Of a stretch of 64,000 nt of DNA, positions 4,889-43,203 are shown one piece after another. How positions within the stretch are numbered: position 1 is the stretch's first letter; each line of letters opens with the position of its first letter. Position numbers and translations under genes: made by a program. Source of the DNA: an uncultured bacterium (GTDB lineage Bacteria; Krumholzibacteriota; Krumholzibacteriia; JACNKJ01). The DNA is taken from assembly GCA_964344565.1 (NCBI GenBank), contig CAYFNT010000012.1:30648-94647 (forward strand), given 5' to 3'. Below the pieces are notes generated by a model. That model ran no database searches. It worked only from the letters and a program-made list of their open reading frames with translations, and was not told where the DNA came from.

Positions 4889-4923
4889 GATCGGGATGAA
4901 GTCACTCGACCCGGGAGGTGGTC

Positions 4924-6615: not shown

Positions 6616-6705
6616 TAGGGGAGGGATTCGGCTATAATCTGATGCGTGGGGACCCCCGCGAACCGGGGCGATGACGCCGGGTACCCGTGAACAGGGGAAA
6701 GCCGA

Positions 6706-7917
6706 ATGCGTCCTGCGCAGCTCAAATCGATCCTCGCAGTCGCCCTCCTGGCGACCTTCGCGATCCTGCCCCTCAGGATCGACGTCGAGCCCGACGCCTC
6801 CGACCCGATTCCGAAACTCCCAGCCCATCACAACTGCCGTTTCTGGGGGGGCGTCTCCACGGTGCTCGACTCGCTCATGCTCCACGACCAGATCATCGTG
6901 CAGCCCCAGTCCCTCGAGAATCTCAGTCCCAGCAATCCCAACGGATGGGCGCTCGCACATTTCCCGGGAGAGGGCGAGCATCCGGTGATCCGGCGCGGAC
7001 CCCACCCGGCCATCGAGGATCCTCTCTACGACATGGCCGTGGCGAGGGCCGGCGCCGATTCGGCGCGCATCGTCATCGGACACGTGCGCAACTGCACCAG
7101 CGGACTCTGCGACATTCCCAATCCCCATCCATTCTATCGATTGTTCGGAGGGAAGCACTGGTTCCTGGGGCACAACGGCAGCATCGACAAGGAAGTGCTC
7201 CTGGACCTGATCCGCCCCGACTTCCTGGCGGCCAATCCGCCGGTGAACGGCTCGGACTTCGAGGAGTGGGTCGACAGCGAGCTGTACTTCCTCTATATCC
7301 TCCAGACCCTCGAGGACCACGACTGGCAGATGGCGCCGGCTCTGGGCGAGGTGGTGGAGTGGCTCAGGGTTCGCATCATCGGCGACATCGAGCAGCTCAA
7401 TTTCGTCATGACCGACGGTGAGACCCTCTGGGCCTATCGCGAAGGCATCGCCCTCTTCTACCACTTCAACACCGACGGCATCGTCCACTCGGCGGTGGCC
7501 TCCAAGCATCCCCCCGAGGAGCAGGGTCCCTGGACCGAGATGGTGGACGGCCAGCTCATCACCCTGCGGCGGGGCATTCCGCCCATCCTGCAGAACGTGG
7601 AGGATTTCTTCACCCACACCCAGGCCGGCGAAACTCCCCTGCCGTCGGCGAAGCTTTCGGCCTGGCCCAATCCCTTCAATCCCAGCACCACTCTGCGCTG
7701 GACCCTGCCCGAGCGGGTCCATTGCCGGGTGAGCATCCACGAGGTGAGCGGCCGGGAAGTGGCCGAACTGGCCGAGGGCGTCATGGAGGCGGGGGAGCAC
7801 GAGCGGGGCTGGACGGCCCGGGACGAGCGGGGCCGGCCCCTCTCCAGCGGGGTCTATATCCTGCGGCTCAGGGCGGGACAGCTTTCCGCCTCCGAGAAGC
7901 TCGTTCTTCTTCAATAG
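6706..7917 (+). CDS. Secreted class-II glutamine amidotransferase-like Ntn hydrolase (YafJ/GATase_4-6 type) fused to a T9SS type-A C-terminal sorting domain
   Basis: Signal peptide MRPAQLKSILAVALLATFAILP. Candidate nucleophile Cys in HHNC|RFWGG, then WALAHFP, VIGHVRNCTSGLCDIPNPHPF and FLGHNGSI motifs collinear with E. coli YafJ. C-terminal 85 aa: WPNPFNPSTTLRWTL...SGVYILRLRAGQLSASEKLVLLQ (Por_Secre_tail / T9SS type-A CTD). Confidence 0.7.
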   Translation: MRPAQLKSILAVALLATFAILPLRIDVEPDASDPIPKLPAHHNCRFWGGVSTVLDSLMLHDQIIVQPQSLENLSPSNPNGWALAHFPGEGEHPVIRRGPHPAIEDPLYDMAVARAGADSARIVIGHVRNCTSGLCDIPNPHPFYRLFGGKHWFLGHNGSIDKEVLLDLIRPDFLAANPPVNGSDFEEWVDSELYFLYILQTLEDHDWQMAPALGEVVEWLRVRIIGDIEQLNFVMTDGETLWAYREGIALFYHFNTDGIVHSAVASKHPPEEQGPWTEMVDGQLITLRRGIPPILQNVEDFFTHTQAGETPLPSAKLSAWPNPFNPSTTLRWTLPERVHCRVSIHEVSGREVAELAEGVMEAGEHERGWTARDERGRPLSSGVYILRLRAGQLSASEKLVLLQ

Positions 7918-7995: not shown

Positions 7996-10356
7996 ATGGC
8001 CCTGGAATTCGGTCCTCGCCGCGCCCGAACTCTGAAGGTCCTGGACGCCATGGGCGGGATGGATCCCGCGCTGAACCCTCAGGACGCGCCTCACTGGGAG
8101 CGCTTCGATCTCATCTACCGCTCTCTCTGCGCCGTGCTCTTCAACTTCGTGCCCATGAGCGGCCATCCCGGCGGCTCGATCTCATCGGGCCGATTCGCCG
8201 CCTCCCTGCTTTTCCGCTGGATGGACTACGACCCTTCCGATCCCGAGCGGGCCGAAAACGATCTCATTTCTTACGCCGCGGGACACAAGGCCCTGGGCGT
8301 CTACGCCATGTGGGCCCTGCGCGACGAGGTGATGCGCCTGGCGGCTCCCGAACTGCTTCCCGGCGACGTCCGCCAGCGACTGCGCCTGGAGGACCTGCTC
8401 GGCTTCCGCCGCAATCCCGCCACCGATACGCCCTTGTTCAGGGAGTTCGGCAGCAAGGCCCTGGACGGACATCCCACGCCCGCCACGCCCTACCTCAAGC
8501 TGGCCACCGGCGCCTCGGGCATCGGTTTCGCCTCCAGCGTGGGCCTGGGCTTCGCCGCCCGCGACGCCTGGGGTGCGCAGGCGCCCAAGGTGCACATCGT
8601 CGAAGGCGAGGGCGGCATGACCGCCGGACGGGTGAGCGAATCCCTGGCCGCCGCCGGCACCGCGTCCCTGGACAATCTCATCCTGCATCTGGACTGGAAC
8701 CAGGCCTCCATCGATTCGGACTGGGTCTGCCGCGAGGGCGATCGTCCCGGCGACTACGTGCAGTGGGATCCTCGCGAGATGGCCTACCTCCACGACTGGA
8801 ACGTGCTCGAGGTGGCCGACGGGAGCGACCTCGCTCAGGTTCACGCCGCCCAGCGTCTTGCCCTCGACATGGACAGTGGGCAGCCCACGGCCATCGTCTA
8901 TCGTACGGTGAAGGGCTGGCGCTACGGCATCGAGGGGAAGGCCTCCCACGGCGGTGGACACAAGTTCGGATCGGAGGGCTACTACGAAGCCCTCCAGCCC
9001 CTCTCGGAGGCCGCGGGCGTGGCCTTCCCGGCCTGTCCCGACACCAAGGACCCGGCGGATGTCGAGGCCGCCTACTGGGCCACCCTCGAGAGCTTCCGCG
9101 CCCTCATCGAGTCCGAAGGCGACATGCTCGCCTTCCTGGGCGGGCAGCTCGCCGAATCGCGCCGCCGTCTGGAAGACCGGTCCCGCGACTCGGCCAAGAA
9201 CGAAATGCGCCTGGACTCGGTTTGGGAGCGGGCCGAGGCCCAGGGACTCGAGGCGCCCGAGGAGCTCAGCCTTGAAATCGGCGCTTCCGCCACCCTGCGC
9301 GGACAGCTTGGAAAGATCCTCAACTGGTACAACCACGCCTCCGGCGGAGCCATCCTCTCGGCCGCCGCGGACCTCCTGGGATCCACCAGCGTGCTCACCG
9401 CCGGCAAGGGGTTCGGCGAGGGCTTCTACCACAGCGCGAACAACGCCGGGAGCCGCATCCTCTCGGTGGGGGGCATCTGTGAGGACGGCATCAGCGGCGT
9501 CATGAGCGGCATCTCCGCCTACGGCTCCCACCTGGCCGTGGCCAGCAGCTACGGCGCCTTCATCGCGGCGCTGGGGCACGTCTCGGCCCGCCTGCATGCC
9601 ATCGGCATGCAGGCCATGACCGAGCGCATGCCCGAGGAGCCCCTGCGCCCCCTCATGCTGGTCTGCGCCCATGCGGGCATGAAGACCGGTGAGGACGGTC
9701 CCACCCACGCCGACCCGCAGGCACTGCAGCTCCTGCAGGAGAACTTTCCCGCGGGATCGGCCCTTACCCTGACGCCCTGGGATCCCCAGGAGCTCTGGCC
9801 CCTGCTCACCCGGGCCCTTCAGATCCGACCGGCGCTCATCGCGCCCTTCGTGACCCGGCCGGGCGAGAACATCCTGGATCGGGAAGCCCTCGGCCTGGCG
9901 CCGGCCGCCGAGGCGGCTCAGGGGCTCTACCGACTGCGCGCGCCCAAGGGTCGCCCCGACGCCACCCTCGTGCTGCAGGGAAGCGGAGTCACCTACGCCT
10001 TCCTGGAAGGGGCCCTGCCCCTGCTCGAGAAGGAGGGGGTGGACCTCGAGCTCTTCTACGTGGCCAGCGCCGAACTCTTCGACGCCCTGCCCGTGGAGAA
10101 GCAAAGGGAGATCTATCCGGAGGAGAAGGCCCGAGCGGCCATGGGCATCACCGGCTTCACGCCGGCGACCCTGCATCGCTGGATTCTGTCGGAAGCGGGA
10201 CGCGCCGCGACCCTGCATCCCTTCCGGGGCGGGCACTACCTGGGCAGCGGTCAGGCCGACAAGGTCATCGCCCAGGCCGGCATGGACGGGAAGAGCCAGG
10301 CTCAGGCGGTGCTGCGCTACGTGGAATCCCGGGCGGGGACGGCCTCCCGGAATTGA
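7996..10356 (+). CDS. Transketolase-family thiamine-diphosphate-dependent enzyme (786 aa, longer than canonical transketolase)
   Basis: GHPGGSISSG and AAGHKALGVYAMWAL (TPP-binding N-terminal motifs of transketolase), and GEDGPTHADPQALQ (pyrimidine-binding domain GEDGPTH motif). The 684-aa antisense ORF 8182..10236 is rejected. Confidence 0.6.
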   Translation: MALEFGPRRARTLKVLDAMGGMDPALNPQDAPHWERFDLIYRSLCAVLFNFVPMSGHPGGSISSGRFAASLLFRWMDYDPSDPERAENDLISYAAGHKALGVYAMWALRDEVMRLAAPELLPGDVRQRLRLEDLLGFRRNPATDTPLFREFGSKALDGHPTPATPYLKLATGASGIGFASSVGLGFAARDAWGAQAPKVHIVEGEGGMTAGRVSESLAAAGTASLDNLILHLDWNQASIDSDWVCREGDRPGDYVQWDPREMAYLHDWNVLEVADGSDLAQVHAAQRLALDMDSGQPTAIVYRTVKGWRYGIEGKASHGGGHKFGSEGYYEALQPLSEAAGVAFPACPDTKDPADVEAAYWATLESFRALIESEGDMLAFLGGQLAESRRRLEDRSRDSAKNEMRLDSVWERAEAQGLEAPEELSLEIGASATLRGQLGKILNWYNHASGGAILSAAADLLGSTSVLTAGKGFGEGFYHSANNAGSRILSVGGICEDGISGVMSGISAYGSHLAVASSYGAFIAALGHVSARLHAIGMQAMTERMPEEPLRPLMLVCAHAGMKTGEDGPTHADPQALQLLQENFPAGSALTLTPWDPQELWPLLTRALQIRPALIAPFVTRPGENILDREALGLAPAAEAAQGLYRLRAPKGRPDATLVLQGSGVTYAFLEGALPLLEKEGVDLELFYVASAELFDALPVEKQREIYPEEKARAAMGITGFTPATLHRWILSEAGRAATLHPFRGGHYLGSGQADKVIAQAGMDGKSQAQAVLRYVESRAGTASRN

Positions 10357-13300
10357 TCAGCTCCTCACCTTGCTGACCTCGCCGAGCTTCACCCGGACCC
10401 GGTGCTTGGCGCCGTCGTCCTCCAGGGGCAGGACGTCATCCTGCAGACTCCGGCCGTCCAACTCGATGGACTCCACCCGGCCGCTTCCCTCGACCTCGAT
10501 CTCGTAGATGGCCCGCCCGAAGCGGTAGGAAAGCTTGAAGCCCTTCCATTCGGCCGGGATGCTCGGGGACAGGCGCAGGCGCGAACCGGCCAGATCCAGT
10601 CCGAGCACGTCCTCCAGCCAGACGCGGAAGTACCAGCTGGCGGCGCCGGTGTACCAGGACCATCCGCCCATGCCCAGGTGTCCCTCGAGGCGATAGACGT
10701 CGGCGGCGATGACGTAGGGCTCCACCCGATAGCGGTGGGCGCTCTCGCCGTCGTAGGCGTGGCTGATGGGATTGAGCAGGTCGAGGATCTCCACGGCCTC
10801 CTCGCCCCGTCCCCGCAGGGCGAAGGCCTTGGCCAGCCAGGTGGCGGCGTGGGTGTACTGTCCGCCGTTCTCCCGCACGCCCGGCGGATAGCTCTTGATG
10901 TAGCCCGGGTCCATGTCCCACTTCTCGAATGGGGGCGCGAAGAGAAGCACCAGTCGGTCCTCCCGGCGCACCAGTTCCTCCCGCGCCGAATCCAGGGCGC
11001 GGTCGGTGCGTTCCGGATCGCCGAGTCCCGAGATGGCGGCCCAGGACTGGCTGAGGGAATCCAGGCGGGCCTCCTCGCTCCACTTGGAGCCGAGGGGAGT
11101 GCCGTCGTCGAAGAAGGCGCGCAGGTACCAGTCGCCGTCCCAGGCGCTCTTCTCCACGTTGGCGGCGAGCTGTTGCGCGCGACCGAGGTAACCTTCGGCC
11201 TCGTCCTCCCGGCCGAGGCGCCGGCAGATGCGCGCGAAACTCTGCAGCACGTCGCCGAGGAACCAGGCCATCCAGACGCTCTCACCCTTGCCGCCGATTC
11301 CCACGCGATTCATGCCGTCGTTCCAGTCTCCGCTGCCCATGAGGGGCAGTCCGCGCTCGCCGAGGTTCAATCCCTTCTGGATGGCCAGACGGCAATGCTC
11401 GAAGAGGGTGGCGCTCTCCACGGTCTCTGCGGGCTGCACGAAGATCTCGTGCTGCTCCTTGGTGAGAGGCGCGGCCTCCAGGAAGGGCACCTGTTCGTGG
11501 AGAATGGCCTCGTCGTCCATCATTTCCACGTAACGCGCCGTGACGTAGGGCAGCCAGAGCAGGTCGTCCGAACAGCGGGAACGGATGCCCGCGCCGCTCT
11601 GGGGATGCCACCAGTGCTGCACGTCGCCCTCCCGGAACTGGCGCGCGGCCGCACGGAGGATCTGCTCGCGCACGAGCTGGGGCGAGTTGTGCAGCAGGGC
11701 CATGGAATCCTGGAGCTGGTCGCGGAAGCCCACCGCGCCGCCGGACTGATAGAGGGCCGAGCGTCCCCAGATGCGGCAGCTCAAGGCCTGATAGGGGAGC
11801 CAACGATTCAGCATGATGTTCGCGCGATCGTCGGGGGTCTCCACCTGCACGGAGCCCAGGAGCTTGTCCCACCAATCGGTGGTGGCCTCGTAGCTCTCCG
11901 CCCGCCTCTGCGCGTCGGCGAAGCGGGCGACCAGAGCCATGACCTCTTCCCTGGACGCGCCCTGTCCGAGGAGGATGCAGAGCTCCCGGTCCTCGCCCGG
12001 ATCCAGTTCGAGGCTCAGCTGCATGGCGGCGCAGGGATCCAGGCCCGCGCCCGTGCGCCCCGAAAGTCCCTCGCCCTTCAGCGCGGCGGGGTCGGCCGGG
12101 CGACCGTTGCGGCCCAGGAACTCCACCCGGTCGCCCGTGTGATGCTCGGCCCGCGGGCTCATGGCCGCGAAGGCGAGGCGATGTCCGAAATCGGAATGGT
12201 AGCGGTTCCTCGCGAAGAGGATGCCCGCCTTCTCTTCCCACTGGGTGACCACGTGCAGCTGGGTGTCCTCGCGGTTCTCGCCGAGGGTCCACTCGGTGTA
12301 GTAGGTCACCGAGAGCTTGCGGCGACGGCCGCTGTTGTTGCGAAGCCGCAGTCGCTGCACGCGCAGGGGCAGTCCTCCGGCGTCGTCCATGGGCACGAAG
12401 GTGAGCAGGTCCTGCTCGATGGCGTGGCTGTTGTGCTCGAAGCGGGTGTAGCCCGCTCCGTGTCGGATACGGTAGGGCTCGATCTCGCGGATGGGCAGGG
12501 GAGTGGGGGACCAGAGCCGTCCCGACTCCTCGTCGCGAATGAAGATGGCGTCGGAGGGAGGATCCGAAACGGGATCGTTGGCCCAGGCGTTCAGACGATT
12601 CTGCTGGCTGTTGCCGAACCAGCAGAATCCGCCGCCCGACTCGCTCACCATGGCGCCGAACTCGGGATTCGCCATCACGTTCACCCAGGGCGCGGGGGTC
12701 TGCTCGCCCTCGTTCAGGGTGATCACGTACTCGCGCCCGTCTGGAGTGAAACCGCCCAGGCCATTCTCGTGGACGAGTTCCTGATAGGGCAACTTGAAGG
12801 AGGGTTCTTCGGGCAGGGTCTTGAAGCTGCGGGGAGCCGTCTCCGCGCTCCATTTCACGGGCAGGCCGAACTGCTGGGGCAGGGGACCGCGGGCCGCCAC
12901 CAGGTGCACGTGGGACGCGGAGAGCAGCAGGTGAAGGTCGTCCTCCGAAAGCTGATCGGCCCTGCGCAGGAAGACGCCGCCGGGGGTGTCCACGCCCGTG
13001 TACATGCTGTTGGCCTGCACCAGGCGCATGAGCTGTTCCTGGAGCGGCTTGTCGTAGCTTGCGCCCTCTTCGTTGAGGATGACCAGATCGGCGACGAGCC
13101 CGTTCTTCCTCCAGTAGTTGTGAGCGAGCAGGAGCTGGCGCACCAGGGACATGTCGCGCACCTGCCCCACGCTCACGGCCACGATGGGCAGGTCTCCCGA
13201 GATGCCGTGGGCCCAGAGGTTCCGCTGGCCCAGGCGGTTCTGCCGCAGACGATCCTCGGGGGCCCGGAACTGTCGGCTGGGATAGAGCACGTGTGCAGCC

Positions 13301-16300
13301 AGCTGCTGGAAGCGGCGGGCCTCGTCGGGCTGGATGCGCAGGTGACGGAGCTGAAGCTGGGCGTGCCGCCAGGCCAGCTCCAGTTCTCGGGCGATGGCCT
13401 TCTCGTCGCCGTAGCGATCCAGGACGGCCAGCACGCCGTCGCGGGTCTCCGAAGCCGCGAGCAGCAGATTGAATCGCACCCGCGCCTGGGGCTCGAGCAC
13501 GATGGACTTGCGCAGGCTGAAGATGGAGTCGAGTACCCGACCCTTGCCGCCGGAAAGGGGCGCGCCCAGTGCGGCAGGATCGGAGGCGTCCCGTCCGCGC
13601 CAGAGGAAGCTGCGACGGTCCGTCTCGTACTGGAGTCCGGCCTCTGTCCGGTGTTCGAAGACCAGACGGTGCCCCGCCCAGATGGCTTCGCCGTCCGCGT
13701 CCTTGGGACGCCGCTGGGCCAGCAGCGCTTCCGCTTCGGGAAGGAATTCCGTTTCCACGAAGAGCTTCGAATAGGCCTGGTGCTGACGATCCGCCCTGTG
13801 CTCGGCCAGGGCGAGTTCGTAGAAGCTCGTGATCTCCAGGCGGCGCGTTGATGCCGTACGATTGCTCAGGGTGATCTGCCGGATTTCGAGATCGTCCTCG
13901 GGCGCCACGATGATCTCGGTCTCGCAGTGGATTCCGTGATCCAGGCGCCGGAATCGCGCGCGATCCGCGGCGAAGTTCACGCTGAACTCCCCGCCCTCAT
14001 CGCCCAGCGGCTGGAAGGTATTGCTCCAGACCTCCCCGCTTTGCTCGTCCCGGAAGAAGCAGAAGCTGCCCCAGTGATCGCGGGTTCCGTCGGCCCGCCA
14101 GCGGGTGAGATTGACGCCGTTCCAGCGCGAGTACCCGCCGCCGGCCGCCGTGAGCATGATGTTCATGTTGCCGTTGCCCAGCAGCAGGGTCTGGGGCGTG
14201 CGCGTGTGGGGCGTCTCGAAGTTGCGGGTGGCCGGAGCCACGTCGGCCGGAAGCATGCGCGTGGCGGTCCACTGGCGCAGGGGAACCTTGTAGAGTGGCG
14301 GAGCCACGGGGATGCGCTCGTAGAGCAGGGGCTCGGTGGCCTCGACCCGTGGATCGGCATGGAAACGATCCTGGAGGATGCCGTCGAATAGGAAGTTGCT
14401 CAGGGCCAGGAAGCCCATGGCCTGATGATGGATCATGTAGGCGTGCACCACCACGCCGTGTTCTCCGGCCCGGCGTCGCTGGCGTCCGTAGTCGATGGAT
14501 TCGAAGAAGCCGTAGTGCCCGTAGAGGTCGTTGGCCTCCAGCTTGCGCAGGTTGGCGATGGACTCCTTGGGCTTGAAGGGCACGGCCAGCAGGGTCGAAT
14601 AGGGGGAGACCACGAGGTCATCGTCGAGACCGCGCTTGAGCCCCAGGCCGGGGGAGCCGAAGGCCTTGTACTGATAGGTGTTCTGCGCGTCCAGATCGCT
14701 GAAGGCCGATTCGGAGATTCCCCAGGGCACCTTCTGCTGGTTGCCGTAGTGGATCTGCTGGTCCACCGCGTCGCTGCAGGACTTGTCCAGGAGCGATTTC
14801 TCGAAGACCCGCTGGAAGAGCGTGGGCATGAGGTACTCGAACATGGTGCCGCCCCAGCTGAGCAGCACGCGTTTGCGATTGACCATGCCGTAGGGCCTCG
14901 AAAGGGACAGCCAGTGATCGGCGGGCACGTCGCCCCGGGCGATGGCCACGAAGCTGGTGAGGCGGGCCTCGCTGGCCAGCAGGTCGTAGTAGGAGCCGTC
15001 CAGGGTCTCGTCGCCCACCTTGTAGCCGATGGAGAAGAGGCGCCGCTCGCGATCGTAGAGGAAGCGCATGTTCATGCCCGAGGCGAGTTCCCGCGCGCGC
15101 TCGATGAGGCGCTCGGCCTGCTGCATGCGCAGGGCCGCCCTCTCGTGGCATGCGCGGAAGCTGGCTTCCAGACGTTCGATCCAGCGGCGACTGCTGTCCT
15201 GGATCTCGTCCACCGTGGCCAGGGCGAAGATGCGGTTCAGCGCGGGCACCGAGGTGCTGGCCAGTTCGGCCATGGAGGGCGCATGGTCGAGCAGGGCTTC
15301 CCAGTCCGCCTGCCCTTCCTCGCCCAGATGGGGAAGAAGTTCCTGGGGCACTTCGGCCAGCAGTTCCATCCAGGCCAGGTATCGGTCGGCGAGGATGGAC
15401 AGGCTCTCGAGGTCTTCCCGCAGCTTGCCGTTCCAGTAGGACGCCTCGGCCACCTCTCCGCGGCTGCCCATGCCGGCGCCGAGGATCAACTCGCCCGCAT
15501 GGCGCGAGGCCTCGCGGATCTGTCCGAGGCGGCTGAGCAGCTTGCCCGATGGGCGCGAGAGCAGGCGGTCCAGAGCGTCCAGCACCTGCAGGGGTTCGGC
15601 GGCCAGGCGCGAAGGATCGATGCTCTCCATGAGCAGTCGCAGGGAGTCGTTGGGTCCGCTGAAGGAGGCCTCGCGCAGGAGCGGCCGCTCGTAGATCTCG
15701 CGAATGCCGGGACCCAGGGCCCAGAGGCTGCCCAGGAGGTTTCCGCTGTCCACCGTGGACACGTAGCGTGGCTCCAGGGGATGCAGGTCGTTCAAGTCGT
15801 ACCAGTTCAGCAGGTGTCCATGGTAGCGTTCGAGCTTGTCGAGGCTGTCGAAGGTTCTCTCGATGCGATCCACCGCATCGTCGGGGCGGATGAAGCCGAA
15901 GTCCTGGGCGGCCAGGGAGGACAGCATCCAGAGTCCGATGTTGGTGGGACTGGTGCGCATGGCCAGTCCGCCGTCGTAGGAGACCTGGTAGTTGTCCGGC
16001 GGGAGCCAGTGGGTGTCCTCGCCGATGAAGTCGTCGAAGTAGCGCCAGGTGCGGCGGGCGATGCGGCGGAGGTAGAGGTGATCCTGGCGAGAGAGCTTGC
16101 CGAGGGACTCGTTGGTCCGATCGGGACGGTTGAGCCTGAGCGCCAGGACGGGCCCCGCGAACCAGAGTGCCAGGAAGGGCAGGGCGGGCCAGAGGCCGGG
16201 CGCGTCGGTCAGCAGGATTCCGATGAGGAGCAGCAGGGCCAGGGCCGCGCCCACGGCCACGCGAAGGAGGAAGCCGGCCGACTGTCCCCCCGAGTGGGCC

Positions 16301-19300
16301 TTGGCCATGGCGGCGGTGGTCCACTCGAGCATCTTCTTGCCGCTGATGAAGCGGCGGTGCATGGCGCGGAGGGTGGCGTCGAGGGTCATCCACGACTGGT
16401 GGGGGAGCAGGGCCGTGTCCGAGAGGGTCCGAACGAAATCGTAGCCCAGCTCGCGGCGGGAGAGTTTCATCCACTGGCTCGGGGTCAGAAGCCAGGTGCT
16501 CAGTCGCGTGAGCACCGGGAAGAGCAGGACCAGCGCCGCCAGGATCGCCGTGGCGGCGGCGAGGGCCGCACCGGCGAACCATGACAGGGGCAGCAGGGTG
16601 AGCAGGGCGGGCAGGGCCATGCTGCGGCGTAGATTGTCGAAGACCTTCCAGCGGGACAGGGCGTCCAGGGGGTTGGCCGTCTTCTTGCCGTCGCCGCCGG
16701 GAACCCGGGGGGCCGACCAGTCTGCGATCTGCCAGTCGCCTCGGATCCAGCGGTGCTGGCGCATGGCGAAGGAACGGTAGTCGGCGGGGAAATCGTCGTA
16801 GAGCTCGATGTCGGTGGCCAGGCCAACCCGCACGTGGGCGCCTTCGATGAGGTCGTGGCTGAGGATGGTCTGCTCGGGGAAGCGATCGGTGAGCACCTGA
16901 TGGAAGGCGCGAAGATCGTAGATGCCCTTGCCGTGGTAGGAACCCTCGCCGGCGAGATCCTGATAGACGTCCGAGACAGCGCGGGTGTAGGGATCCGTGC
17001 CCGTGGGATCCGTATAGATGCGCGAGAAAAGGCTGGTCATGGCGCTGGGCAAGCCGGTGCTCACCCGCGGCTGGATGAGCGTGTAGCCGTCGATGACACG
17101 CGTTCCGTCGTCGCTGAGCCAGGGACGATTGAGGGGGTGGGCCAGGGTCTCCACCATGCGCCGCGCGGTGTCGCGGGGCAGTTCGGTGTCGGCGTCAAGG
17201 GTGATGACGAAGCGCACGTTGTCCAATAGGCTCGGATCGCCGGCCTGGATGAGCCCATCGCCGGCCCGGGGTCTTTCACCGCTGAGCAGACGGTTCAGCT
17301 CCTCGAGCTTGCCGCGCTTGCGTTCCCAGCCGATGTATCGACCCTCCGATTCGCACCATTCCCGATCCCGGTGGAAGAAGAAGAAACGGTTCTCGCCGTG
17401 GCGGCGAGCCAGTTCATCCACGGCCTTCTTCGCGTGGGCCAGGATCTCCGCATCCCGAGGCGTGGTTTCCTCGTCGGCGTCGGTGAAATCGCCGAAGAGA
17501 CCGTAGAGCAGGTTGTCGCCGGGATTGGCGAGGTATCGGATCTCGAGCTTGCGGAGTTCCTCGTCGATGACCTGCTCGCTGATGGACAGCATGGGCACGA
17601 CCACCAGGGTGCGGAACTCGTCGGGAATGCCCGTGCGCTTGAAGGACATCTTCGGTAGGGCCCTCGGCGTGAGGCCCCGGGAGATGGCGTAGTTGAGCAG
17701 CTGCAGGGAAAGCTGACTGGCCGGGAATGCCGCCAGGATCAGGATGGGCAGGAGCCAGCCGGCCCCGACGCCGGAGGCCAGACCGACCCAGGCCAGGGCG
17801 ACCAGGAGGGACAGGGTCATGAGGCCCAGGGAACCCAGGTAGATCGGCGAGGCCCTGTGGGTGATTCGCCTGCGGGCGCGACGGCGCCAGGAATCGCGGG
17901 TGAAGAGGCTGTCGAGCAGGGCGGGACGGCCCTTGCCCACGAGCCACCAGCCCACATGGCCGAGCCGCTCCTCGTTCTCCTCGCCCTGGGCCGCGGCGGC
18001 CAGCTCGGTGGCCTTGCGCGCCACTTCCTCCTCTCCGAGCTTCGAGGCGCGGGCGACCTCTTCCACCGCGTCGCGGTAGCTGTCGCGGGTGGAGAAGTCC
18101 ATCTTGGAGAAGTGTCCGCCGGGATCCTGCACCAGTACCTTCTCTACCATGCTCTGCTGCTCGAAGATCTCGCGCCAGTCCAGCAGGGTGAGCTGCCTCA
18201 GGCTGGTGATGGCGTTGCCGATGGAGGCCCGGTCGGCGGCTTGCTCGGACTGCTCCCTCTGCAGCATCTCGGCCAGGGGAATGGCCATCTTCTGTTCCAG
18301 CCAGGTGCGCACGGGCACCAGGGCCGCGTCCTCGTCGAAGAGGTGGCTGGTGATCTGCGAGGCGAAGTGGGGGCTGGGCTCGGGATGCTGCTCGGCCATC
18401 TCGGCCAGGATTCGCAGCAGCTGATTCGGATCGCGCCGGCTCGCGGCCAGCAGGCGGTGGGCCCAGAAGTCGGCGCTCTCGCGCTCGTGGAGGCGACGGT
18501 CCACCCGCTGGGTGAGGCGGCAGAGCCCGGTGAGCAGGGCGATGCGCAGCATCATGGGGAAGGCCCAGAGCTCGCCGATGGTCAGGGGCGAGACCGATTG
18601 ATAGGCCTCGAGGAAATCGCCGATGTTGTGACGATCCAGCCAGCCGTCGGTATGCTGGATCATCTCCTTGGCCATGTTGTAGATGCGCGGCAGGCCCCGG
18701 TGGGGGTCGCTATCCAGCACGGGAAGTTCCCGGTAGAAGCCCTTGGGCAGGTTCAGGCGCACGTCGTTGATCTGGCCCTGCACGATGTAGGCGTTGTCGA
18801 GGATCCACTCGGCCGAGGTGGAGATGCGCTGGTCGAGCTTGGAGACGTCCTCCAGGCCCCGGCGGACCTCCTGGATGACCCGCTCGCAGCGATCCAGACG
18901 CTTGAGCAGCGACTCTTCCTTGCCCCGGCTCGGACGCACCTTGTGGCGGGTGGCCAGCTCTCTGGAGTGTTGCCGGAACTGATTGCTTGTCAGGGGGGTT
19001 TGGCGCGTCTCTTCATCCGGAATCTTGTGCTTTCGGTCCGGATGGAAGGTGAAGATGGAGGGCTGGACCTCGCCGATTCGGCGCAGGATGGGCAGCTCGC
19101 CGGCCAGGGAGGAGAAGCGGGCCTGGAGCATCAACATGTTCTCGCCGGTGACCAGGTAGCGGGCGTAGGTGTTCAGGGGCGCGCGGGCCAGACCGAAGGG
19201 AGCGCCCAGGCCGCGCTGGATGCGGACCTGTCCCGATCGGGATTTCCTCAGAACCGCCACCTTCCGGTAGCCCCGTCGCCTCAACTGCTCCAGCGCCCGC

Positions 19301-19365
19301 GCGGCGTCCTCCTGCTCGCGGAAGAAGCCAAGCAGCACTCCCTGCTTGTTCCTGGATAAACTCAT
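10357..19365 (-). CDS. ndvB: Cyclic beta-1,2-glucan synthase (Cgs/NdvB/ChvB-type; GT84 glycosyltransferase plus C-terminal GH94 glucan phosphorylase-like domain), about 3003 aa
   Basis: One continuous ORF. The probable start is ATG at 19365 (MSLSRNKQGVLLGFF, SD AGGTGAG); the listed 3053-aa ORF starts 50 codons further upstream. GT84 region (FFFFHRDREWCESEGRYIGWERKRGKLEELN, ITLDADTELPRDTARRMV) and GH94 region (GDWNDGMNRVGIGGKGESVWMAWFL, YFESIDYG). Multiple predicted TM helices in the N-terminal third. The size and architecture match Brucella/Agrobacterium Cgs. Confidence 0.85.
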   Translation of the reverse strand: MSLSRNKQGVLLGFFREQEDAARALEQLRRRGYRKVAVLRKSRSGQVRIQRGLGAPFGLARAPLNTYARYLVTGENMLMLQARFSSLAGELPILRRIGEVQPSIFTFHPDRKHKIPDEETRQTPLTSNQFRQHSRELATRHKVRPSRGKEESLLKRLDRCERVIQEVRRGLEDVSKLDQRISTSAEWILDNAYIVQGQINDVRLNLPKGFYRELPVLDSDPHRGLPRIYNMAKEMIQHTDGWLDRHNIGDFLEAYQSVSPLTIGELWAFPMMLRIALLTGLCRLTQRVDRRLHERESADFWAHRLLAASRRDPNQLLRILAEMAEQHPEPSPHFASQITSHLFDEDAALVPVRTWLEQKMAIPLAEMLQREQSEQAADRASIGNAITSLRQLTLLDWREIFEQQSMVEKVLVQDPGGHFSKMDFSTRDSYRDAVEEVARASKLGEEEVARKATELAAAAQGEENEERLGHVGWWLVGKGRPALLDSLFTRDSWRRRARRRITHRASPIYLGSLGLMTLSLLVALAWVGLASGVGAGWLLPILILAAFPASQLSLQLLNYAISRGLTPRALPKMSFKRTGIPDEFRTLVVVPMLSISEQVIDEELRKLEIRYLANPGDNLLYGLFGDFTDADEETTPRDAEILAHAKKAVDELARRHGENRFFFFHRDREWCESEGRYIGWERKRGKLEELNRLLSGERPRAGDGLIQAGDPSLLDNVRFVITLDADTELPRDTARRMVETLAHPLNRPWLSDDGTRVIDGYTLIQPRVSTGLPSAMTSLFSRIYTDPTGTDPYTRAVSDVYQDLAGEGSYHGKGIYDLRAFHQVLTDRFPEQTILSHDLIEGAHVRVGLATDIELYDDFPADYRSFAMRQHRWIRGDWQIADWSAPRVPGGDGKKTANPLDALSRWKVFDNLRRSMALPALLTLLPLSWFAGAALAAATAILAALVLLFPVLTRLSTWLLTPSQWMKLSRRELGYDFVRTLSDTALLPHQSWMTLDATLRAMHRRFISGKKMLEWTTAAMAKAHSGGQSAGFLLRVAVGAALALLLLIGILLTDAPGLWPALPFLALWFAGPVLALRLNRPDRTNESLGKLSRQDHLYLRRIARRTWRYFDDFIGEDTHWLPPDNYQVSYDGGLAMRTSPTNIGLWMLSSLAAQDFGFIRPDDAVDRIERTFDSLDKLERYHGHLLNWYDLNDLHPLEPRYVSTVDSGNLLGSLWALGPGIREIYERPLLREASFSGPNDSLRLLMESIDPSRLAAEPLQVLDALDRLLSRPSGKLLSRLGQIREASRHAGELILGAGMGSRGEVAEASYWNGKLREDLESLSILADRYLAWMELLAEVPQELLPHLGEEGQADWEALLDHAPSMAELASTSVPALNRIFALATVDEIQDSSRRWIERLEASFRACHERAALRMQQAERLIERARELASGMNMRFLYDRERRLFSIGYKVGDETLDGSYYDLLASEARLTSFVAIARGDVPADHWLSLSRPYGMVNRKRVLLSWGGTMFEYLMPTLFQRVFEKSLLDKSCSDAVDQQIHYGNQQKVPWGISESAFSDLDAQNTYQYKAFGSPGLGLKRGLDDDLVVSPYSTLLAVPFKPKESIANLRKLEANDLYGHYGFFESIDYGRQRRRAGEHGVVVHAYMIHHQAMGFLALSNFLFDGILQDRFHADPRVEATEPLLYERIPVAPPLYKVPLRQWTATRMLPADVAPATRNFETPHTRTPQTLLLGNGNMNIMLTAAGGGYSRWNGVNLTRWRADGTRDHWGSFCFFRDEQSGEVWSNTFQPLGDEGGEFSVNFAADRARFRRLDHGIHCETEIIVAPEDDLEIRQITLSNRTASTRRLEITSFYELALAEHRADRQHQAYSKLFVETEFLPEAEALLAQRRPKDADGEAIWAGHRLVFEHRTEAGLQYETDRRSFLWRGRDASDPAALGAPLSGGKGRVLDSIFSLRKSIVLEPQARVRFNLLLAASETRDGVLAVLDRYGDEKAIARELELAWRHAQLQLRHLRIQPDEARRFQQLAAHVLYPSRQFRAPEDRLRQNRLGQRNLWAHGISGDLPIVAVSVGQVRDMSLVRQLLLAHNYWRKNGLVADLVILNEEGASYDKPLQEQLMRLVQANSMYTGVDTPGGVFLRRADQLSEDDLHLLLSASHVHLVAARGPLPQQFGLPVKWSAETAPRSFKTLPEEPSFKLPYQELVHENGLGGFTPDGREYVITLNEGEQTPAPWVNVMANPEFGAMVSESGGGFCWFGNSQQNRLNAWANDPVSDPPSDAIFIRDEESGRLWSPTPLPIREIEPYRIRHGAGYTRFEHNSHAIEQDLLTFVPMDDAGGLPLRVQRLRLRNNSGRRRKLSVTYYTEWTLGENREDTQLHVVTQWEEKAGILFARNRYHSDFGHRLAFAAMSPRAEHHTGDRVEFLGRNGRPADPAALKGEGLSGRTGAGLDPCAAMQLSLELDPGEDRELCILLGQGASREEVMALVARFADAQRRAESYEATTDWWDKLLGSVQVETPDDRANIMLNRWLPYQALSCRIWGRSALYQSGGAVGFRDQLQDSMALLHNSPQLVREQILRAAARQFREGDVQHWWHPQSGAGIRSRCSDDLLWLPYVTARYVEMMDDEAILHEQVPFLEAAPLTKEQHEIFVQPAETVESATLFEHCRLAIQKGLNLGERGLPLMGSGDWNDGMNRVGIGGKGESVWMAWFLGDVLQSFARICRRLGREDEAEGYLGRAQQLAANVEKSAWDGDWYLRAFFDDGTPLGSKWSEEARLDSLSQSWAAISGLGDPERTDRALDSAREELVRREDRLVLLFAPPFEKWDMDPGYIKSYPPGVRENGGQYTHAATWLAKAFALRGRGEEAVEILDLLNPISHAYDGESAHRYRVEPYVIAADVYRLEGHLGMGGWSWYTGAASWYFRVWLEDVLGLDLAGSRLRLSPSIPAEWKGFKLSYRFGRAIYEIEVEGSGRVESIELDGRSLQDDVLPLEDDGAKHRVRVKLGEVSKVRS

Positions 19366-19482
19366 CTCACCTGCCAGATTGCGTGGGAATTCGACGGAAA
19401 GCACTATCGGACGCGATTTTGCGCCATGTCCCCGAAATGAACAAGCTCCAAAACGCCGGGACTCGCCAGGGGGCACGAAAAA

Positions 19483-19503
19483 GGCCCCGGCATCGCCGGG
19501 GCC
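19483..19503 (-). terminator. Rho-independent terminator downstream of tricorn-like gene
   Basis: Perfect 9-bp stem GGCCCCGGC / GCCGGGGCC with a 3-nt loop. On the minus strand it is followed by TTTTTCG. It lies 25 nt after the stop at 19528. Confidence 0.6.
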
Positions 19504-19527
19504 TTTCGCAGCGGGCAAGAATCGGTG

Positions 19528-22500
19528 CTAGTTCTCGTTCTCGTAGGCCTCCCGGCTGCGGTCGGGGGCCGGTCCGAAATCGGGCTTTTCGGGGGGATGC
19601 TTCTTGTGGAGCTTCATGACCTCCTCGATGCCCCGTTCCAGCTGGGCGTCGATGCCGCGGGCCAGATCCTGGGGAAGGTTGTCCACCTCGATGTCGGGAT
19701 CCACGCCGTGGCCCTCCAGTCCCCAGCCGTCCTTGCTGTCCCACCACGCGAACTCCGGATGCGTCACCGCGCCGCCGTCCACGAAGGGCTTCACGCCGCG
19801 GATGCCGACCACGCCGCCCCAGGAGCGCTTGCCGATGACCGGCGCCAGTCCTTCGAGCTGCACGGCCGCCGGGAAGATGTCGCCGTCGGAGCCGGCGTTC
19901 TCATTGGTGAGAACCACGAAGGGTCCGTTGAGCACCCGGTAGGGGTAGGTGCTCATGGTGCCGTAGCGCATGCGGTCCCAGCTGATGATGCTGCGTTGGA
20001 AACGCGCGAGGATGAGCTGGGACACGAAGCCGCCGCCGTTCCAGCGGGTGTCGACGATCATCCCTTCCTTTTCCAACTGCGGGTAGAACCAGGTGTCGAA
20101 CTCGACCATTCCGCGTCCGCCCATGTCGGGGATGTGGATGTAACCGATCTTGCCGTCGGTCTTCTCGAGAACGTACTCGCGGTTCTTCCTCACCCAGTCG
20201 GCGTAGACCAGCTGGAAGTTGTTGTAGATGGGACGCACGACCACGTGGCGCGTGTCCTCCGAGCCGAGGCTGTCGACCACCGTGAGCATCACCTCGCGGC
20301 CCGCCAGATTCTCGAAGGCCGCCTCGAAGGGTCGGTCCTCCGGGAAGGACAGCAGGTTCACCTCGAGGATGTAGTCGCCCTCGTCGACGTCCACTCCGGG
20401 CTCGTCCAGGGGCGAGCGCACGCGATCGGGGTGGCCGCCGCGGTAGATGTGATCCACGCGGAAGGCATCGCCCTCCCGCGCGAACTCGGCGCCGAGCAGC
20501 CCCGTGCCGCGCCATTGCGCGCCGGGCTTGTTGTCCCCGCCCCAGACGTAGGTGTGGCCAGTGGACAGTTCACCGATCATCTCGGCGATGAGATCGCGCA
20601 GGTCGGTGCGTCGGGCCAGGCGGGGCAGCATGCTCGCGTACTGGTCGCGGACGGCTTCCCAATCGAGGCCGTGCATGTTCTCGTCCCAGTAGAAGTCGCG
20701 CAGTCCGCGCCAGGCTTCGTGGAAGATCTGCTTCCACTCCTCGCGGGGATCCAGATCGATGACCGCGCCGCTGAAGTCCACGGCCGCGTCGGAGAGGTCT
20801 CCGGGAGGAGCGGCGGTGCCGACCACGAAGATCTGTCCGCGGCCCTTGCTCACGGCCATCTTGCCGGCGCCGGGCTGCAGGTCGTAGCTGAAGACGCCCG
20901 GCATGAACATGGAGGGCTCGTCCTCGCCGATGCCGTAGCTCATCAGATTCACGCCGCCTCCCGGTCCGCTATCGGCCCAGCTCGTGCCGGCCAATCCAGT
21001 CATGGGCGCGGAGTGGTAGAAGATCTTTCCGGAAACGGCGCCCAGGCCCCAGTAGCCTCCGGCGGGGATGGGAAGCTCGACGAATCGATCCGCGATTCCA
21101 TCGAAGTCGATTTCCACGGGCTCGAGTTTCTCTTCCTCATCCTCTTCATCCTCGGCCTCGTCGTCCTCGCCTTCGGCCTCTTCACCTTCCTCGTCATCGC
21201 TGTCGGCATCCTCGCCATCGGCATCATCGCCGTCGGCGTCTTCGCCCTCGCCTTCCTCGGCATCACCTTCTTCGCCTTCGGCCTCGGAGTCCTCATCCTC
21301 GGTCTCGGCGTCTTCTTCCTCCTCATCTTCTTCCACGGGAGGGATGCCGGCCTGATCCAGGAAGGGATTCTCCACGTCGGGACGAAGGAAGAGCATGTAT
21401 GCCTTGGTGGCCTGGTCGATGATGGTCTCGAAGTCGCGGTTGCCGATCAACGGATCGATACTGCGATTGCTCAGGAAATACAGGTACTTGCCGTCGGGAT
21501 CCCAGGCGGGGGAGTAGTCGTCGGTCATGTCGCCTGTGACGATGTGATCCTCCTGCTCCTGGGTGTCGTAGATATGGATCGTGCCGTTGCCGATCATGTT
21601 GTTGGTGGTGTAGGCGAGCCAGCGTCCGTCGGGACTCCACTCGTATTCGTGGATCTCCCAGCCCTCGCTGTGGGCGATCTCGATGGGATCGGATTCTTCC
21701 GCCTCGAGGTCGATGAGGAAGAGGCCGTGGGTGATGTCGCCGTAGGCCAGCCAACGATCGTCCGGCGAGATGCGGGGCATGAAGTATCCGCCCCGTTCGC
21801 CCGCCGGCTTGATGGTCTTCAGATCGCCTCGGCCCCAGGCGTCGGCGTTGACGAGGGCTTCCTCGCCGCTCTCGTCGGTCACGTAGACCACGCGCTCACC
21901 GTCGTCCATGTAGTTGAAGCGACTCTCGCGAGCGCCGCTGCCTCGGGTGACCGGCAGGGTCACCCCGTCCTCCACCGGAATGGTGAACATCTCGCCGCGA
22001 CTCACGATCATCACGCGCTCGCCGTCGGGGGAGAGTCCGTACTCGGTGAGGTAGAGGCCAGAGTTGGGGTAGCGCTTGCGCGTGAAGCTGCGCTCGCTGG
22101 GCAGGTCGATCTCTAGCGTGGTCTCCTCATCCGTGCTCGGATTGTAGAGGTGGATGTCGCCGGCCAGCCCGAAGACGATGCGGCCAGAAGGACCCATAGC
22201 GGGGAAACGGGCGTCCCAGGTGTCGTGGTCGGTCAGACGCTTGCGGCGGCTGCCGTCGGCCTTCATGGACCAGAGGTTGGCCGTGCCACCCATGTCGCTC
22301 AGGAAGTAGATCTTGCCGCCGAACCACATGGGAAAGAGGTCGATGCCGTCGAAGTCCGTGACTTCCCGGTAGTCCTGCTTTCCGGGATCGCCCACCCAGA
22401 TCTCGGGGGCGGTGCCGCCCCGGTAGCGCTTCCAGGTGCCGCCGCCCCAGGTGCGGGTGAAGGCCCAATCGCCGCTGTCCGGATCGATGGCCAGGAAGTT

Positions 22501-22977
22501 GGCGCGGCCGATGGGCACCTGCATCGCGTCCCCGCCGCGGGCGGGAATCATGTAGATCTCGGGATCGAAGTGTGCGCTGTGACGCGAAGCGCGGAAAAGG
22601 ATCTTCTCGCCGTCGGGCGACCAGCCCACGCAGGTGTCGCCTCCCGGATGCCAGGTCAGGCGTCGAGGCTCTCCGCCTTCCACGGGAATCACGTAGAGAT
22701 CCATGTTGCCGTCGTACTGGGCGGAAAAGGCGATGGTCTTGCCGTCCGGAGAGATGTGGGGGCTGAACTCCCGTCCCTCGTGGGCGGTGATGCGATGGAT
22801 GGATCCCACCCTGTCTCCGTCGATGCGACCGGTCCAGAGATCACCTTCGGCGGTGAAGACCAAGAGGTCTCCGTGGATGTCCGGATTGCCCAGGTAGCCC
22901 GGGCGCGCCCAGGCCGTCAGCGCCGTGGCGAGGATCAGAAGCAAGGCCAGATGGATCCGCATTGAGCCGCTACTCAT
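19528..22977 (-). CDS. Tricorn protease homolog (TolB-like beta-propellers plus PDZ plus S41 C-terminal-processing peptidase domains) with an about 70-aa D/E-rich insertion
   Basis: Signal peptide [20 protein letters not shown]-terminal propeller motifs ([27 protein letters not shown]), PDZ, and S41 core ([16 protein letters not shown]..., [18 protein letters not shown]). Acidic tract [37 protein letters not shown]... at about 21060-21330. The antisense 863-aa ORF is rejected. Confidence 0.8.
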
Positions 22978-23191: not shown

Positions 23192-23261
23192 AATGATCTC
23201 GAAATCGAGGCGGGGTCTTCGATACCGGGCATTCAATACAATCGCAACCAAAGGTCCACCA

Positions 23262-35169: not shown

Positions 35170-35206
35170 GCTTCCTCCTCAGGCGGCCGGCCGGGCCGGC
35201 GCGATT

Positions 35207-43171: not shown

Positions 43172-43203
43172 GCCGCGCTACGTCGATTCAGTGAACCTGG
43201 CCT

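What the first reader, a model, noticed from the sequence alone, without database searches (positions are those of the whole stretch)
10357..19365. Full-length cyclic beta-1,2-glucan synthase (about 3003 aa) outside its usual alphaproteobacterial context
A single 9-kb ORF with the GT84 and GH94 two-domain architecture of Cgs/NdvB. These enzymes are best known from Rhizobiales, where they make periplasmic cyclic glucans used for osmoadaptation and host interaction. Its presence here suggests cyclic beta-glucan production in this lineage, in a genome that also carries a T9SS and Hdr. It lies immediately downstream of a transketolase-like gene.
Basis: partly seen in the sequence, partly recalled or inferred. 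Interest (0 to 1): 0.5.

Follow-up and report, generated by a model that had tools for sequence, protein, structure and literature searches.

The report
This 9-kb gene is an intact relative of the giant bacterial enzyme that makes ring-shaped beta-1,2-glucans; such genes are common in many bacterial phyla, so finding one in this uncultured bacterium is ordinary apart from a small extra domain at its start.

Summary
One uninterrupted ORF lies on the minus strand at 10357..19365 (3002 aa). It aligns end to end with the cryo-EM-solved Agrobacterium tumefaciens Cgs (E=0, 1886 bits).

Every catalytic or mechanistic residue I could map is present, and each is invariant or nearly so in 132 full-length relatives. 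These cover the GT84 synthase, the primer tyrosine, the GH189 cyclase and the GH94 phosphorylase. Hydropathy shows the expected three hairpins (six helices). [quoted passage not shown]

The "unusual context" argument is weak. More than 1600 homologues were found, and over 100 are about 3050 aa. Named ones come from Phycisphaerae, Desulfarculus, Terriglobia, Aminicenantales and Anaerolineaceae. A further 130 plasmid records come from Gamma-, Beta- and Alphaproteobacteria and Gemmatimonadota.

The transketolase-like gene is convergent with cgs, not upstream. A terminator hairpin separates cgs from the upstream Tricorn-like protease gene. No Cgt/NdvA-type exporter lies in the window.

The one non-canonical feature is an N-terminal ferredoxin-fold module of about 112 aa. 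It is shared by the long clade and not detectable in Agrobacterium Cgs. Here it lacks the two-helix membrane hairpin that most clade members carry.

Verdict: a new member of a known kind, of low to moderate interest.

The parts
10357..19365 (-). [quoted passage not shown]
   Evidence: ORF and translation. Full-length alignment to A. tumefaciens Cgs 8rf0/8rf9, E=0, 1886 bits. The identical protein is in public collections as P0001.
19030..19365 (-). N-terminal extra module, aa 1-112: ferredoxin-like alpha/beta fold. It is specific to the ~3050-aa Cgs clade and here lacks the 2-TM hairpin insert.
17851..19029 (-). Helical linker plus the NTD scaffold, aa 113-505. Recognisable homology to AtuCgs starts at aa 176 (Atu residue 81).
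   Evidence: phmmer alignment of query 176-1249 to Atu 81-1148. Predicted helices 127-140 and 153-183.
17698..17832 (-). Membrane hairpin TM1-TM2, aa about 512-556
   Evidence: Kyte-Doolittle peaks at 515-556; corresponds to the AtuCgs TM region in the alignment.
16651..17643 (-). GT84 glycosyltransferase domain, aa about 575-905, with D626, D724-A-D726, primer Tyr Y793, catalytic base D838 and R872-W873
   Evidence: Residue mapping to AtuCgs D527, D624/D626, Y694, D739 and R773 (paper PMC10901819). 43% identity to Atu over the core. All are invariant in 132 relatives.
16510..16617 (-). Membrane hairpin TM3-TM4, aa about 917-952
   Evidence: Hydropathy peaks.
16138..16269 (-). Membrane hairpin TM5-TM6, aa about 1033-1076
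   Evidence: Hydropathy peaks.
14296..16092 (-). GH189 cyclization (beta-1,2-glucanotransferase) domain, aa about 1092-1690, with D1206, acid/base E1466, E1510, nucleophile E1552 and H1646-H1647. The stretch between the two blocks that align to AtuCgs (query 1250-1412, Atu 1149-1247) is about 64 aa longer here.
   Evidence: Alignments to 8rf0 and to the TiCGS cyclization domain 8wy1, E=3.7e-123. Catalytic residues taken from PMC10834661 and PMC10901819. Invariant in 132 relatives except H1646, which is 128 H and 4 N.
10486..14268 (-). GH94 phosphorylase module, aa about 1700-2960, with R2548-D2549, catalytic acid D2683 (DWND) and H2839
   Evidence: Pfam GH94 supersandwich and catalytic domains. 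Alignment to Atu D2393 and D2528 and to cellobiose phosphorylases. 49% identity to Atu over the catalytic part. R2548, D2549 and D2683 are invariant in 132 relatives; H2839 is His in 131 of 132.
19475..19509 (-). GC-rich hairpin followed by a U-run: a probable intrinsic terminator of the upstream Tricorn-like gene, which would leave cgs with its own promoter
   Evidence: Sequence. RNA fold -30.5 kcal/mol, z=-3.8, with 0 of 200 shuffles folding as well. The consensus scan did not flag it.
19528..22977 (-). Context only: Tricorn-like S41 protease gene upstream on the same strand. The adjacency is kept in relatives down to about 72-75% identity.
   Evidence: Pfam. Synteny in L001-L003. P0003 and P0140 both have a 29,248-base longest contig from JGI, apparently the same contig.
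7996..10356 (+). Context only: divergent transketolase-superfamily gene, convergent with cgs, with stop codons abutting at 10356/10357
   Evidence: Pfam. NCBIfam transketolase score is 133 bits against a cut-off of 488. Sequence.

Best explanation

Inferred cycle, taken from the characterised enzymes:
1. The GT84 domain uses UDP-glucose to glucosylate its own Tyr793 and extends a beta-1,2-glucan on it.
2. The C-terminal GH94 domain trims over-long chains by phosphorolysis, which controls length.
3. The central GH189 domain (nucleophile E1552, acid/base E1466) transfers the chain onto its own end. This releases a cyclic beta-1,2-glucan of roughly 17-25 glucoses on the cytoplasmic side.
4. An unlinked exporter would then move the glucan to the periplasm, where it would serve as an osmoprotectant or envelope solute in this free-living, uncultured FCB-group (Eisenbacteria-like) bacterium.

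The extra N-terminal ferredoxin-fold module is most likely a clade-specific regulatory or oligomerisation add-on.

Shown here: homology, domain order, conservation of all mapped catalytic residues, membrane topology pattern, and stable residence in the lineage. Inferred: product, export and physiological role.
For: - End-to-end homology to the structurally solved AtuCgs: E=0, 1886 bits, with 43% identity over the GT84 core and 49% over the GH94 catalytic part.
- GT84: D626, D724/D726, D838 and R872-W873 match Atu D527, D624/D626, D739 and R773. The glucan-primer Tyr (Atu Y694) is Y793 (PMC10901819).
- GH189: E1466, E1510, E1552 and H1646/H1647 match TiCGS E1356, E1400, E1442 and H1536/H1537. 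D1206 matches Atu D1104.
- GH94: D2549 and D2683 match Atu D2393 and D2528.
- These positions are invariant or nearly so across 132 full-length relatives at 50-100% identity, which indicates purifying selection on all three activities.
- Three hydrophobic hairpins lie at the expected places.
- The gene and its neighbours are syntenic in MAGs at 94% and 85% identity, and codon composition matches the neighbouring genes. It is therefore a resident gene, not an assembly artefact or a recent insertion.
Against: - No biochemical data exist for any member of this ~3050-aa clade.
- No Cgt/NdvA/ChvA-type ABC exporter (ABC_membrane plus ABC_tran) was found among 30 ORFs of the window or about 10 kb further left.
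- No such exporter was found beside four other clade members either.
- No glucan-modifying genes were seen.
- The N-terminal module and the longer insert in the cyclase have unknown effects.
- Ring size, and even cyclic versus linear output, cannot be read from sequence.
Confidence: 0.8

Rival explanations
1. Same enzyme chemistry but a different biological use. The glucan stays in the cytoplasm, as a compatible solute or carbon reserve, or leaves by a non-Cgt route. This lineage has no dedicated Cgt/NdvA-type exporter.
For: No ABC_membrane-type exporter was found in the window, in the extra flank or next to four other clade members. The window is rich in alpha-glucan storage and turnover genes.
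Against: cgs and cgt are unlinked in Brucella (my own knowledge of the Brucella genome, not checked here), so absence nearby says little. Only about 75 kb of this genome was inspected. All soluble domains of AtuCgs face the cytoplasm, and export is needed for the known functions (PMC10901819).
Confidence: 0.12
2. The protein mainly degrades or remodels beta-1,2-glucans through phosphorolysis by GH94 and transglycosylation by GH189, rather than synthesising them.
For: GH94 and GH189 catalytic residues are intact. Some database records name relatives 'chitobiose phosphorylase' or 'glucoamylase family protein'.
Against: The GT84 UDP-binding and catalytic residues and the primer tyrosine are invariant across 132 relatives, which a purely catabolic enzyme would not need. 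Those database names reflect single-domain matches. No beta-1,2-glucan uptake or SGL genes lie nearby.
Confidence: 0.05
3. The gene is a decaying or non-functional relic, or a recently acquired foreign gene of no consequence to the host.
For: The nearest relatives outside its own small clade are only 50-55% identical and come from unrelated phyla. That is compatible with old horizontal transfer.
Against: The 9-kb frame is intact. All catalytic positions are conserved. GC3 of 0.87 falls within the range of the window's other genes, 0.69-0.90. Synteny is conserved at 94%, 85% and about 72% identity.
Confidence: 0.03

Closest known systems
Agrobacterium tumefaciens Cgs/ChvB (PDB 8rf0, 8rf9; PMC10901819), with its orthologues Brucella abortus Cgs and Sinorhizobium meliloti NdvB
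   Same: Same domain order: NTD, TM1-2, GT84, TM3-6, cyclase, GH94. Alignment covers query 176-2957. The UDP-binding and catalytic Asp residues, the RW motif, the primer Tyr, the cyclase acidic residues and the GH94 catalytic Asp are all identical. Identity is 43% over the GT84 core and 49% over the GH94 part.
   Different: About 95 extra residues at the N-terminus form a ferredoxin-like module that is not detectable in AtuCgs. The stretch between the two aligned cyclase blocks is about 64 residues longer. There is no adjacent chvA/ndvA-type exporter gene. The host is an uncultured, apparently free-living FCB-group bacterium rather than a plant- or animal-associated alphaproteobacterium.
Thermoanaerobacter italicus CGS cyclization domain (TiCGS-Cy, PDB 8wy1; founding member of GH189; PMC10834661)
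   Same: E=3.7e-123 over the cyclase. The nucleophile E1442, acid/base E1356, E1400 and H1536/H1537 are all conserved here as E1552, E1466, E1510 and H1646/H1647.
   Different: Only the isolated domain of TiCGS has been characterised. Its residue numbering is offset by about 110 from the query, so TiCGS does not share all of the query's extra segments. This follows from numbering only and was not tested on the full sequence.
The ~3050-aa 'long Cgs' clade from metagenomes (P0004-P0120; named members include Phycisphaerae, Desulfarculus, Terriglobia, Aminicenantales and bacterium BMS3Abin14)
   Same: 50-55% identity over 97-100% of the length, including the N-terminal module.
   Different: Most members carry a two-helix membrane hairpin of about 59 residues inserted in the N-terminal module, which would give eight helices. 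The query and its 72-94% relatives (3002 aa) have precisely lost or never had it.
Stand-alone GH94 phosphorylases (cellobiose, chitobiose and beta-1,2-oligoglucan phosphorylases; e.g. 3qde, 1v7v)
   Same: The C-terminal ~800 aa align along the full length of these enzymes (E about 1e-98), with the DWND catalytic acid conserved.
   Different: Here the GH94 part is the C-terminal quarter of a membrane-bound synthase, not a soluble catabolic enzyme.

Membership tests
[quoted passage not shown] | End-to-end sequence homology and the same domain order as an experimentally characterised Cgs | tested here: met
   phmmer against 8rf0/8rf9: E=0, 1886 bits, query 176-1249 and 1413-2957 aligned.
[quoted passage not shown] | GT84 active site: UDP-coordinating Asp residues (Atu D527, D624/D626), catalytic base (D739) and the RW motif (R773) | tested here: met
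   D626, D724/D726, D838 and R872-W873. Invariant in 132 relatives. Residue roles from PMC10901819.
[quoted passage not shown] | Autoglucosylated primer tyrosine in the IF1-homology loop (Atu Y694) | tested here: met
   Y793 in 'GTDPYTRAVSDVYQDL' aligns with Atu 'GIDPYVFTVSDVYQDL'. Tyr in 132 of 132. Role.
[quoted passage not shown] | Six transmembrane helices in three hairpins around the GT domain | tested here: met
   Hydropathy peaks at 515-556, 917-952 and 1033-1076. This is a coarse method and no dedicated topology predictor was available.
[quoted passage not shown] | GH189 cyclization domain with nucleophile Glu, acid/base Glu, the supporting Glu and the His-His pair | tested here: met
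   E1552, E1466, E1510 and H1646/H1647 align with TiCGS E1442, E1356, E1400 and H1536/H1537. Conserved in 128-132 of 132.
[quoted passage not shown] | C-terminal GH94 phosphorylase domain with the catalytic acid (Atu D2528) and substrate-binding Asp (D2393) | tested here: met
   D2683 (DWND) and D2549 (FRDQ). Pfam GH94 domains at E=1e-115 to 1e-152. Invariant in 132.
[quoted passage not shown] | Product is a cyclic beta-1,2-glucan made from UDP-glucose | not testable with these tools
   Needs expression and glycan analysis.
[quoted passage not shown] | Partner ABC exporter (Cgt/NdvA/ChvA) in the genome. This is a feature of the system, not of the enzyme family. | tested here: inconclusive
   None among 30 window ORFs, about 10 kb of extra flank, or the neighbourhoods of four other clade members. 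The rest of the genome was not available.
PII / CutA1 / ACT-like ferredoxin-fold small domains (for the N-terminal module only) | Beta-alpha-beta-beta-alpha-beta fold similarity to solved members | tested here: met
PII / CutA1 / ACT-like ferredoxin-fold small domains (for the N-terminal module only) | Sequence-level family membership (Pfam/NCBIfam/PDB profile match) or conserved ligand-binding residues | tested here: not met

The most novel reading that the evidence does not exclude
The N-terminal ferredoxin-fold module defines a distinct, very widespread but unstudied 'long' Cgs clade in uncultured anaerobic and sediment bacteria. Most members carry a two-helix membrane hairpin in the module; this lineage has secondarily lost it. 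The module would act as a sensor or regulatory switch, for example for osmotic or membrane state or for a metabolite, that gates cyclic-glucan synthesis. That form of control is absent from the Agrobacterium and Brucella paradigm. It would imply that cyclic beta-1,2-glucans are a general envelope osmolyte of free-living bacteria rather than a host-interaction speciality.
Probability: 0.25. Interest if true: 0.45.

Novelty: new member of a known kind. Interest (0 to 1): 0.25.

Why it matters
If the enzyme is active, cyclic beta-1,2-glucan production extends to an uncultured FCB-group lineage, and by implication to the many phyla that carry the same long form. That supports the view that these glucans are general envelope solutes, not only symbiosis or virulence factors.

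On the practical side, the long clade offers hundreds of diverse, intact Cgs sequences for producing cyclic glucans. It also offers a natural pair of variants, with and without the N-terminal membrane hairpin, for asking what the extra module does.

None of this overturns current understanding. The enzyme family, its mechanism and its presence outside Alphaproteobacteria are already documented.

Tried and rejected
- NCBIfam has no model that recognises the protein.
- Pfam and NCBIfam on the N-terminal module gave nothing significant.
- A profile of the module against the PDB gave only chance hits to membrane proteins.
- The profile search of 1.84 billion representatives was meant to find the module in other protein contexts. 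Most hits turned out to be Cgs N-termini or truncated or frameshifted fragments. One protein with repeated YflT-like units (P0364) and one possibly chimeric protein (P0273) were the only clear exceptions, so no independent context was established.
- A paper search for MAG NIOZ-UU57 found nothing.
- There are no tRNA genes in the window for taxonomy. The genome-collection records are titled only 'uncultured bacterium'.
- The consensus promoter/terminator scan found nothing upstream of cgs, although folding shows a strong hairpin.
- I looked at the Gemmatirosa kalamazoonensis plasmid homologue to see whether a cultured relative has the N-terminal module. The upstream reading frame was unclear and I drew no conclusion.
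- I considered a second structure prediction of residues 1-1100 to see where the module docks. I rejected it because only a shallow alignment could be supplied.
- A loose regex count of motifs was replaced by a column-wise check on a full alignment.
Full report
**Observation**

The window has one uninterrupted reading frame on the minus strand. Its stop codon is at 10357 and its ATG at 19365, giving 3002 aa. The open frame continues to a TTG at 19518. Relatives at 85% and 72% identity start at the same methionine, and public gene calls give exactly 3002 aa. Third-position GC is 0.87, which fits real coding sequence in this 62-69% GC window. The strand is minus.

**What it is**

Pfam finds two GH94 supersandwich stretches, the GH94 catalytic domain, a 'Glycoamylase' domain and a weak GT2-like stretch. 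Against solved structures the protein aligns along nearly its whole length with Agrobacterium tumefaciens Cgs: 8rf0/8rf9, E=0, 1886 bits, query 176-1249 and 1413-2957. Its middle part matches the crystallised cyclization domain of Thermoanaerobacter italicus CGS (8wy1, E about 1e-121 to 1e-123). Identity to the Agrobacterium enzyme is 43% over the GT84 core and 49% over the GH94 catalytic part.

**Catalytic residues**

I took residue roles from the cryo-EM paper (PMC10901819) and the GH189 paper (PMC10834661), then mapped each one through the printed alignments.

| Domain | Reference residue | Residue here |
|---|---|---|
| GT84 | Atu D527 | D626 |
| GT84 | Atu D624/D626 | D724/D726 |
| GT84 | Atu D739 (catalytic base) | D838 |
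| GT84 | Atu R773 (RW motif) | R872-W873 |
| GT84 | Atu Y694 (autoglucosylated primer Tyr) | Y793 |
| GH189 cyclase | Atu D1104 | D1206 |
| GH189 cyclase | Atu E1300 / TiCGS E1356 (acid/base) | E1466 |
| GH189 cyclase | TiCGS E1400 | E1510 |
| GH189 cyclase | TiCGS E1442 (nucleophile) | E1552 |
| GH189 cyclase | TiCGS H1536/H1537 | H1646/H1647 |
| GH94 | Atu D2393 | D2549 |
| GH94 | Atu D2528 (catalytic acid) | D2683 |

The mapping rests. In a MAFFT alignment of 132 full-length relatives at 50-100% identity, every one of these columns is invariant except H1646, which is 128 His and 4 Asn. A further conserved His, H2839 in the 'QYTH' motif, is His in 131 of 132; I take it to be the phosphate-binding His of GH94 enzymes, from my own knowledge rather than a check here. 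Hydropathy shows three hydrophobic hairpins at 515-556, 917-952 and 1033-1076, matching the six-helix topology of the Agrobacterium enzyme.

**What is different**

Recognisable homology to the Agrobacterium protein starts at query residue 176, which is Atu residue 81. The query therefore has about 95 extra N-terminal residues. The stretch between the two aligned cyclase blocks is also about 64 residues longer.

In most clade members a two-helix membrane hairpin of about 59 residues is inserted in the loop after the third strand. The query and its 72-94% relatives lack exactly this insert, which explains 3002 aa against about 3055 aa.

A profile of the module found 605 cluster representatives among 1.84 billion proteins. 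Most of those inspected are N-termini or fragments of Cgs-like proteins, so the module looks largely specific to this Cgs clade.

**How unusual is the context?**

The protein search returned 1601 proteins at E<=1e-10 among the 8000 candidates scored. The best 120 are almost all 2,900-3,130 aa and cover 94-100% of the query at 50-55% identity. Named ones come from Phycisphaerae, Desulfarculus, Terriglobia, Aminicenantales, Anaerolineaceae and unclassified bacteria, and many JGI records are already labelled 'cyclic beta-1,2-glucan synthetase'.

A tblastn of the N-terminal 700 aa against plasmids hit 130 records. These come from Pantoea, Klebsiella, Escherichia, Salmonella, Enterobacter, Burkholderia, Paracoccus, Sinorhizobium, Rhizobium, Acidiphilium and Gemmatirosa. 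In nearly all the listed rows the alignment starts after query residue 90-130 (earliest 40 and 80), that is after most or all of the extra module.

The literature already describes a Thermoanaerobacter CGS, and it describes GH189 as one of the largest groups of its clan (PMC10834661; PMC12102758). GT84 turns up routinely in CAZyme surveys. The enzyme's occurrence outside Alphaproteobacteria is thus established. This is one more member.

**Host and neighbourhood**

The window is part of a 96.9-kb ENA metagenome contig from PRJEB17505. Close MAG copies are titled only 'uncultured bacterium'. The neighbouring Tricorn-like protease has Candidatus Eisenbacteria as its best named relatives (53-67%), followed by Fermentibacteria, Gemmatimonadota and Acidobacteriota. 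Several window proteins carry FlgD_ig or Por_Secre_tail sorting domains. I infer an Eisenbacteria-like FCB-group bacterium, with modest confidence.

The order CotH protein, Tricorn-like protease, cgs, transketolase-like gene is kept in MAGs at 94% and 85% identity and apparently at about 72%. The gene's composition matches its neighbours. It is therefore a resident gene.

The transketolase-like gene (7996..10356, plus strand) is convergent with cgs, with abutting stop codons. It scores far below the transketolase equivalog cut-off, 133 bits against 488. It is not an upstream operon partner.

Between the Tricorn-like gene and cgs lies a strong GC hairpin followed by a U-run (19475..19509; -30.5 kcal/mol; z=-3.8). 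This suggests cgs is transcribed on its own.

No ABC_membrane-type exporter was found among 30 window ORFs, in about 10 kb further left, or beside four other clade members. Neighbourhoods across the clade share nothing. Because cgs and cgt can be unlinked, this says little either way. It leaves the export step untested.

**Mechanism and verdict**

The best-supported reading (confidence about 0.8) is a working Cgs. It would prime itself on Tyr793 from UDP-glucose and elongate a beta-1,2-glucan. The GH94 domain would trim the chain and the GH189 domain would cyclise it. The ring would be released in the cytoplasm for export by an unidentified transporter. The likely role is osmoadaptation or envelope homeostasis in a free-living bacterium.

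The chemistry is inferred from homology and from residue conservation. Product, export and physiology are not shown.

Rivals are the same chemistry without export (0.12), a mainly remodelling or degradative role (0.05) and a relic or passenger gene (0.03).

Novelty: a new member of a known kind. The only feature that might deserve follow-up is the clade-specific N-terminal ferredoxin-fold module and its presence or absence of a membrane hairpin. Interest: 0.25.

Noticed in passing
window 29095..31590, minus strand (in-frame TGA at 30991-30993): Two adjacent ORFs are in the same frame and separated by a single TGA. One has an FAD-binding N-terminal part; the other has Fer4 and FlpD/MvhD domains. 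The read-through translation is ...[19 protein letters not shown]..., which resembles the HdrA Cys motif (recalled as DCSxCI, not checked against a reference) with a Cys position occupied by TGA. This looks like a selenocysteine-containing HdrA-MvhD fusion that ORF lists and gene callers would split. I did not search for a SECIS element.
   Followed up: partly
window 19475..19509, minus strand: A perfect 9-bp GC stem (GGCCCCGGC/GCCGGGGCC) with a 3-nt loop and a following U-run lies directly after the Tricorn-like gene. It is a probable intrinsic terminator that the consensus scan missed.
   Followed up: yes
window 38574..62804: A dense alpha-glucan (starch/glycogen) cluster. It holds a 1028-aa GH57/CBM53 protein with a T9SS-type C-terminal sorting domain, a GH57 4-alpha-glucanotransferase-like gene, an amylo-alpha-1,6-glucosidase (GDE_C) gene, a solute-binding protein followed by two untested ORFs, a GH13 enzyme with CBM48/X25 modules, and a glycogen-phosphorylase-like gene. 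Several large ORFs in between (45270..46661, 47049..49337, 49115..50650, 50666..51730) have little or no Pfam match.
   Followed up: no
window 3..2062, continuing left on the contig (L012): An MttB-superfamily methyltransferase without an in-frame TAG sits next to corrinoid-binding and methyltransferase genes (Met_synt_B12, B12-binding, S-methyl_trans). This is the arrangement of a non-pyrrolysine quaternary-amine (e.g. glycine betaine) demethylation system. It may bear on osmolyte turnover, but I did not examine it.
   Followed up: no
window 2987..7917 and 23193..26627: A run of large secreted-looking proteins. Two beta-helix/Chlam_PMP-repeat proteins are followed by a GATase_4 protein ending in a FlgD_ig domain. 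Further along is a 1144-aa CotH-kinase-domain protein with Lamin-tail, beta-helix and Por_Secre_tail domains. These are T9SS-type cargo signals attached to unusual catalytic domains.
   Followed up: no
window 7996..10356, plus strand: The 'transketolase-like' gene encodes a 786-aa protein with all three transketolase-superfamily domains. It scores far below the NCBIfam transketolase cut-offs (133 bits against 488), so it is a divergent ThDP enzyme of unknown specificity. Its stop codon abuts the cgs stop codon with no intergenic base.
   Followed up: partly
window 29095..37825, minus strand: The Hdr/Mvh-like genes sit next to a CCG-domain (HdrB/D-like) protein, a GltD/NfnB-like Fer4_20 plus Pyr_redox_2 protein, and 2-oxoacid:ferredoxin oxidoreductase subunits. 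This suggests a flavin-based electron-bifurcating module.
   Followed up: no
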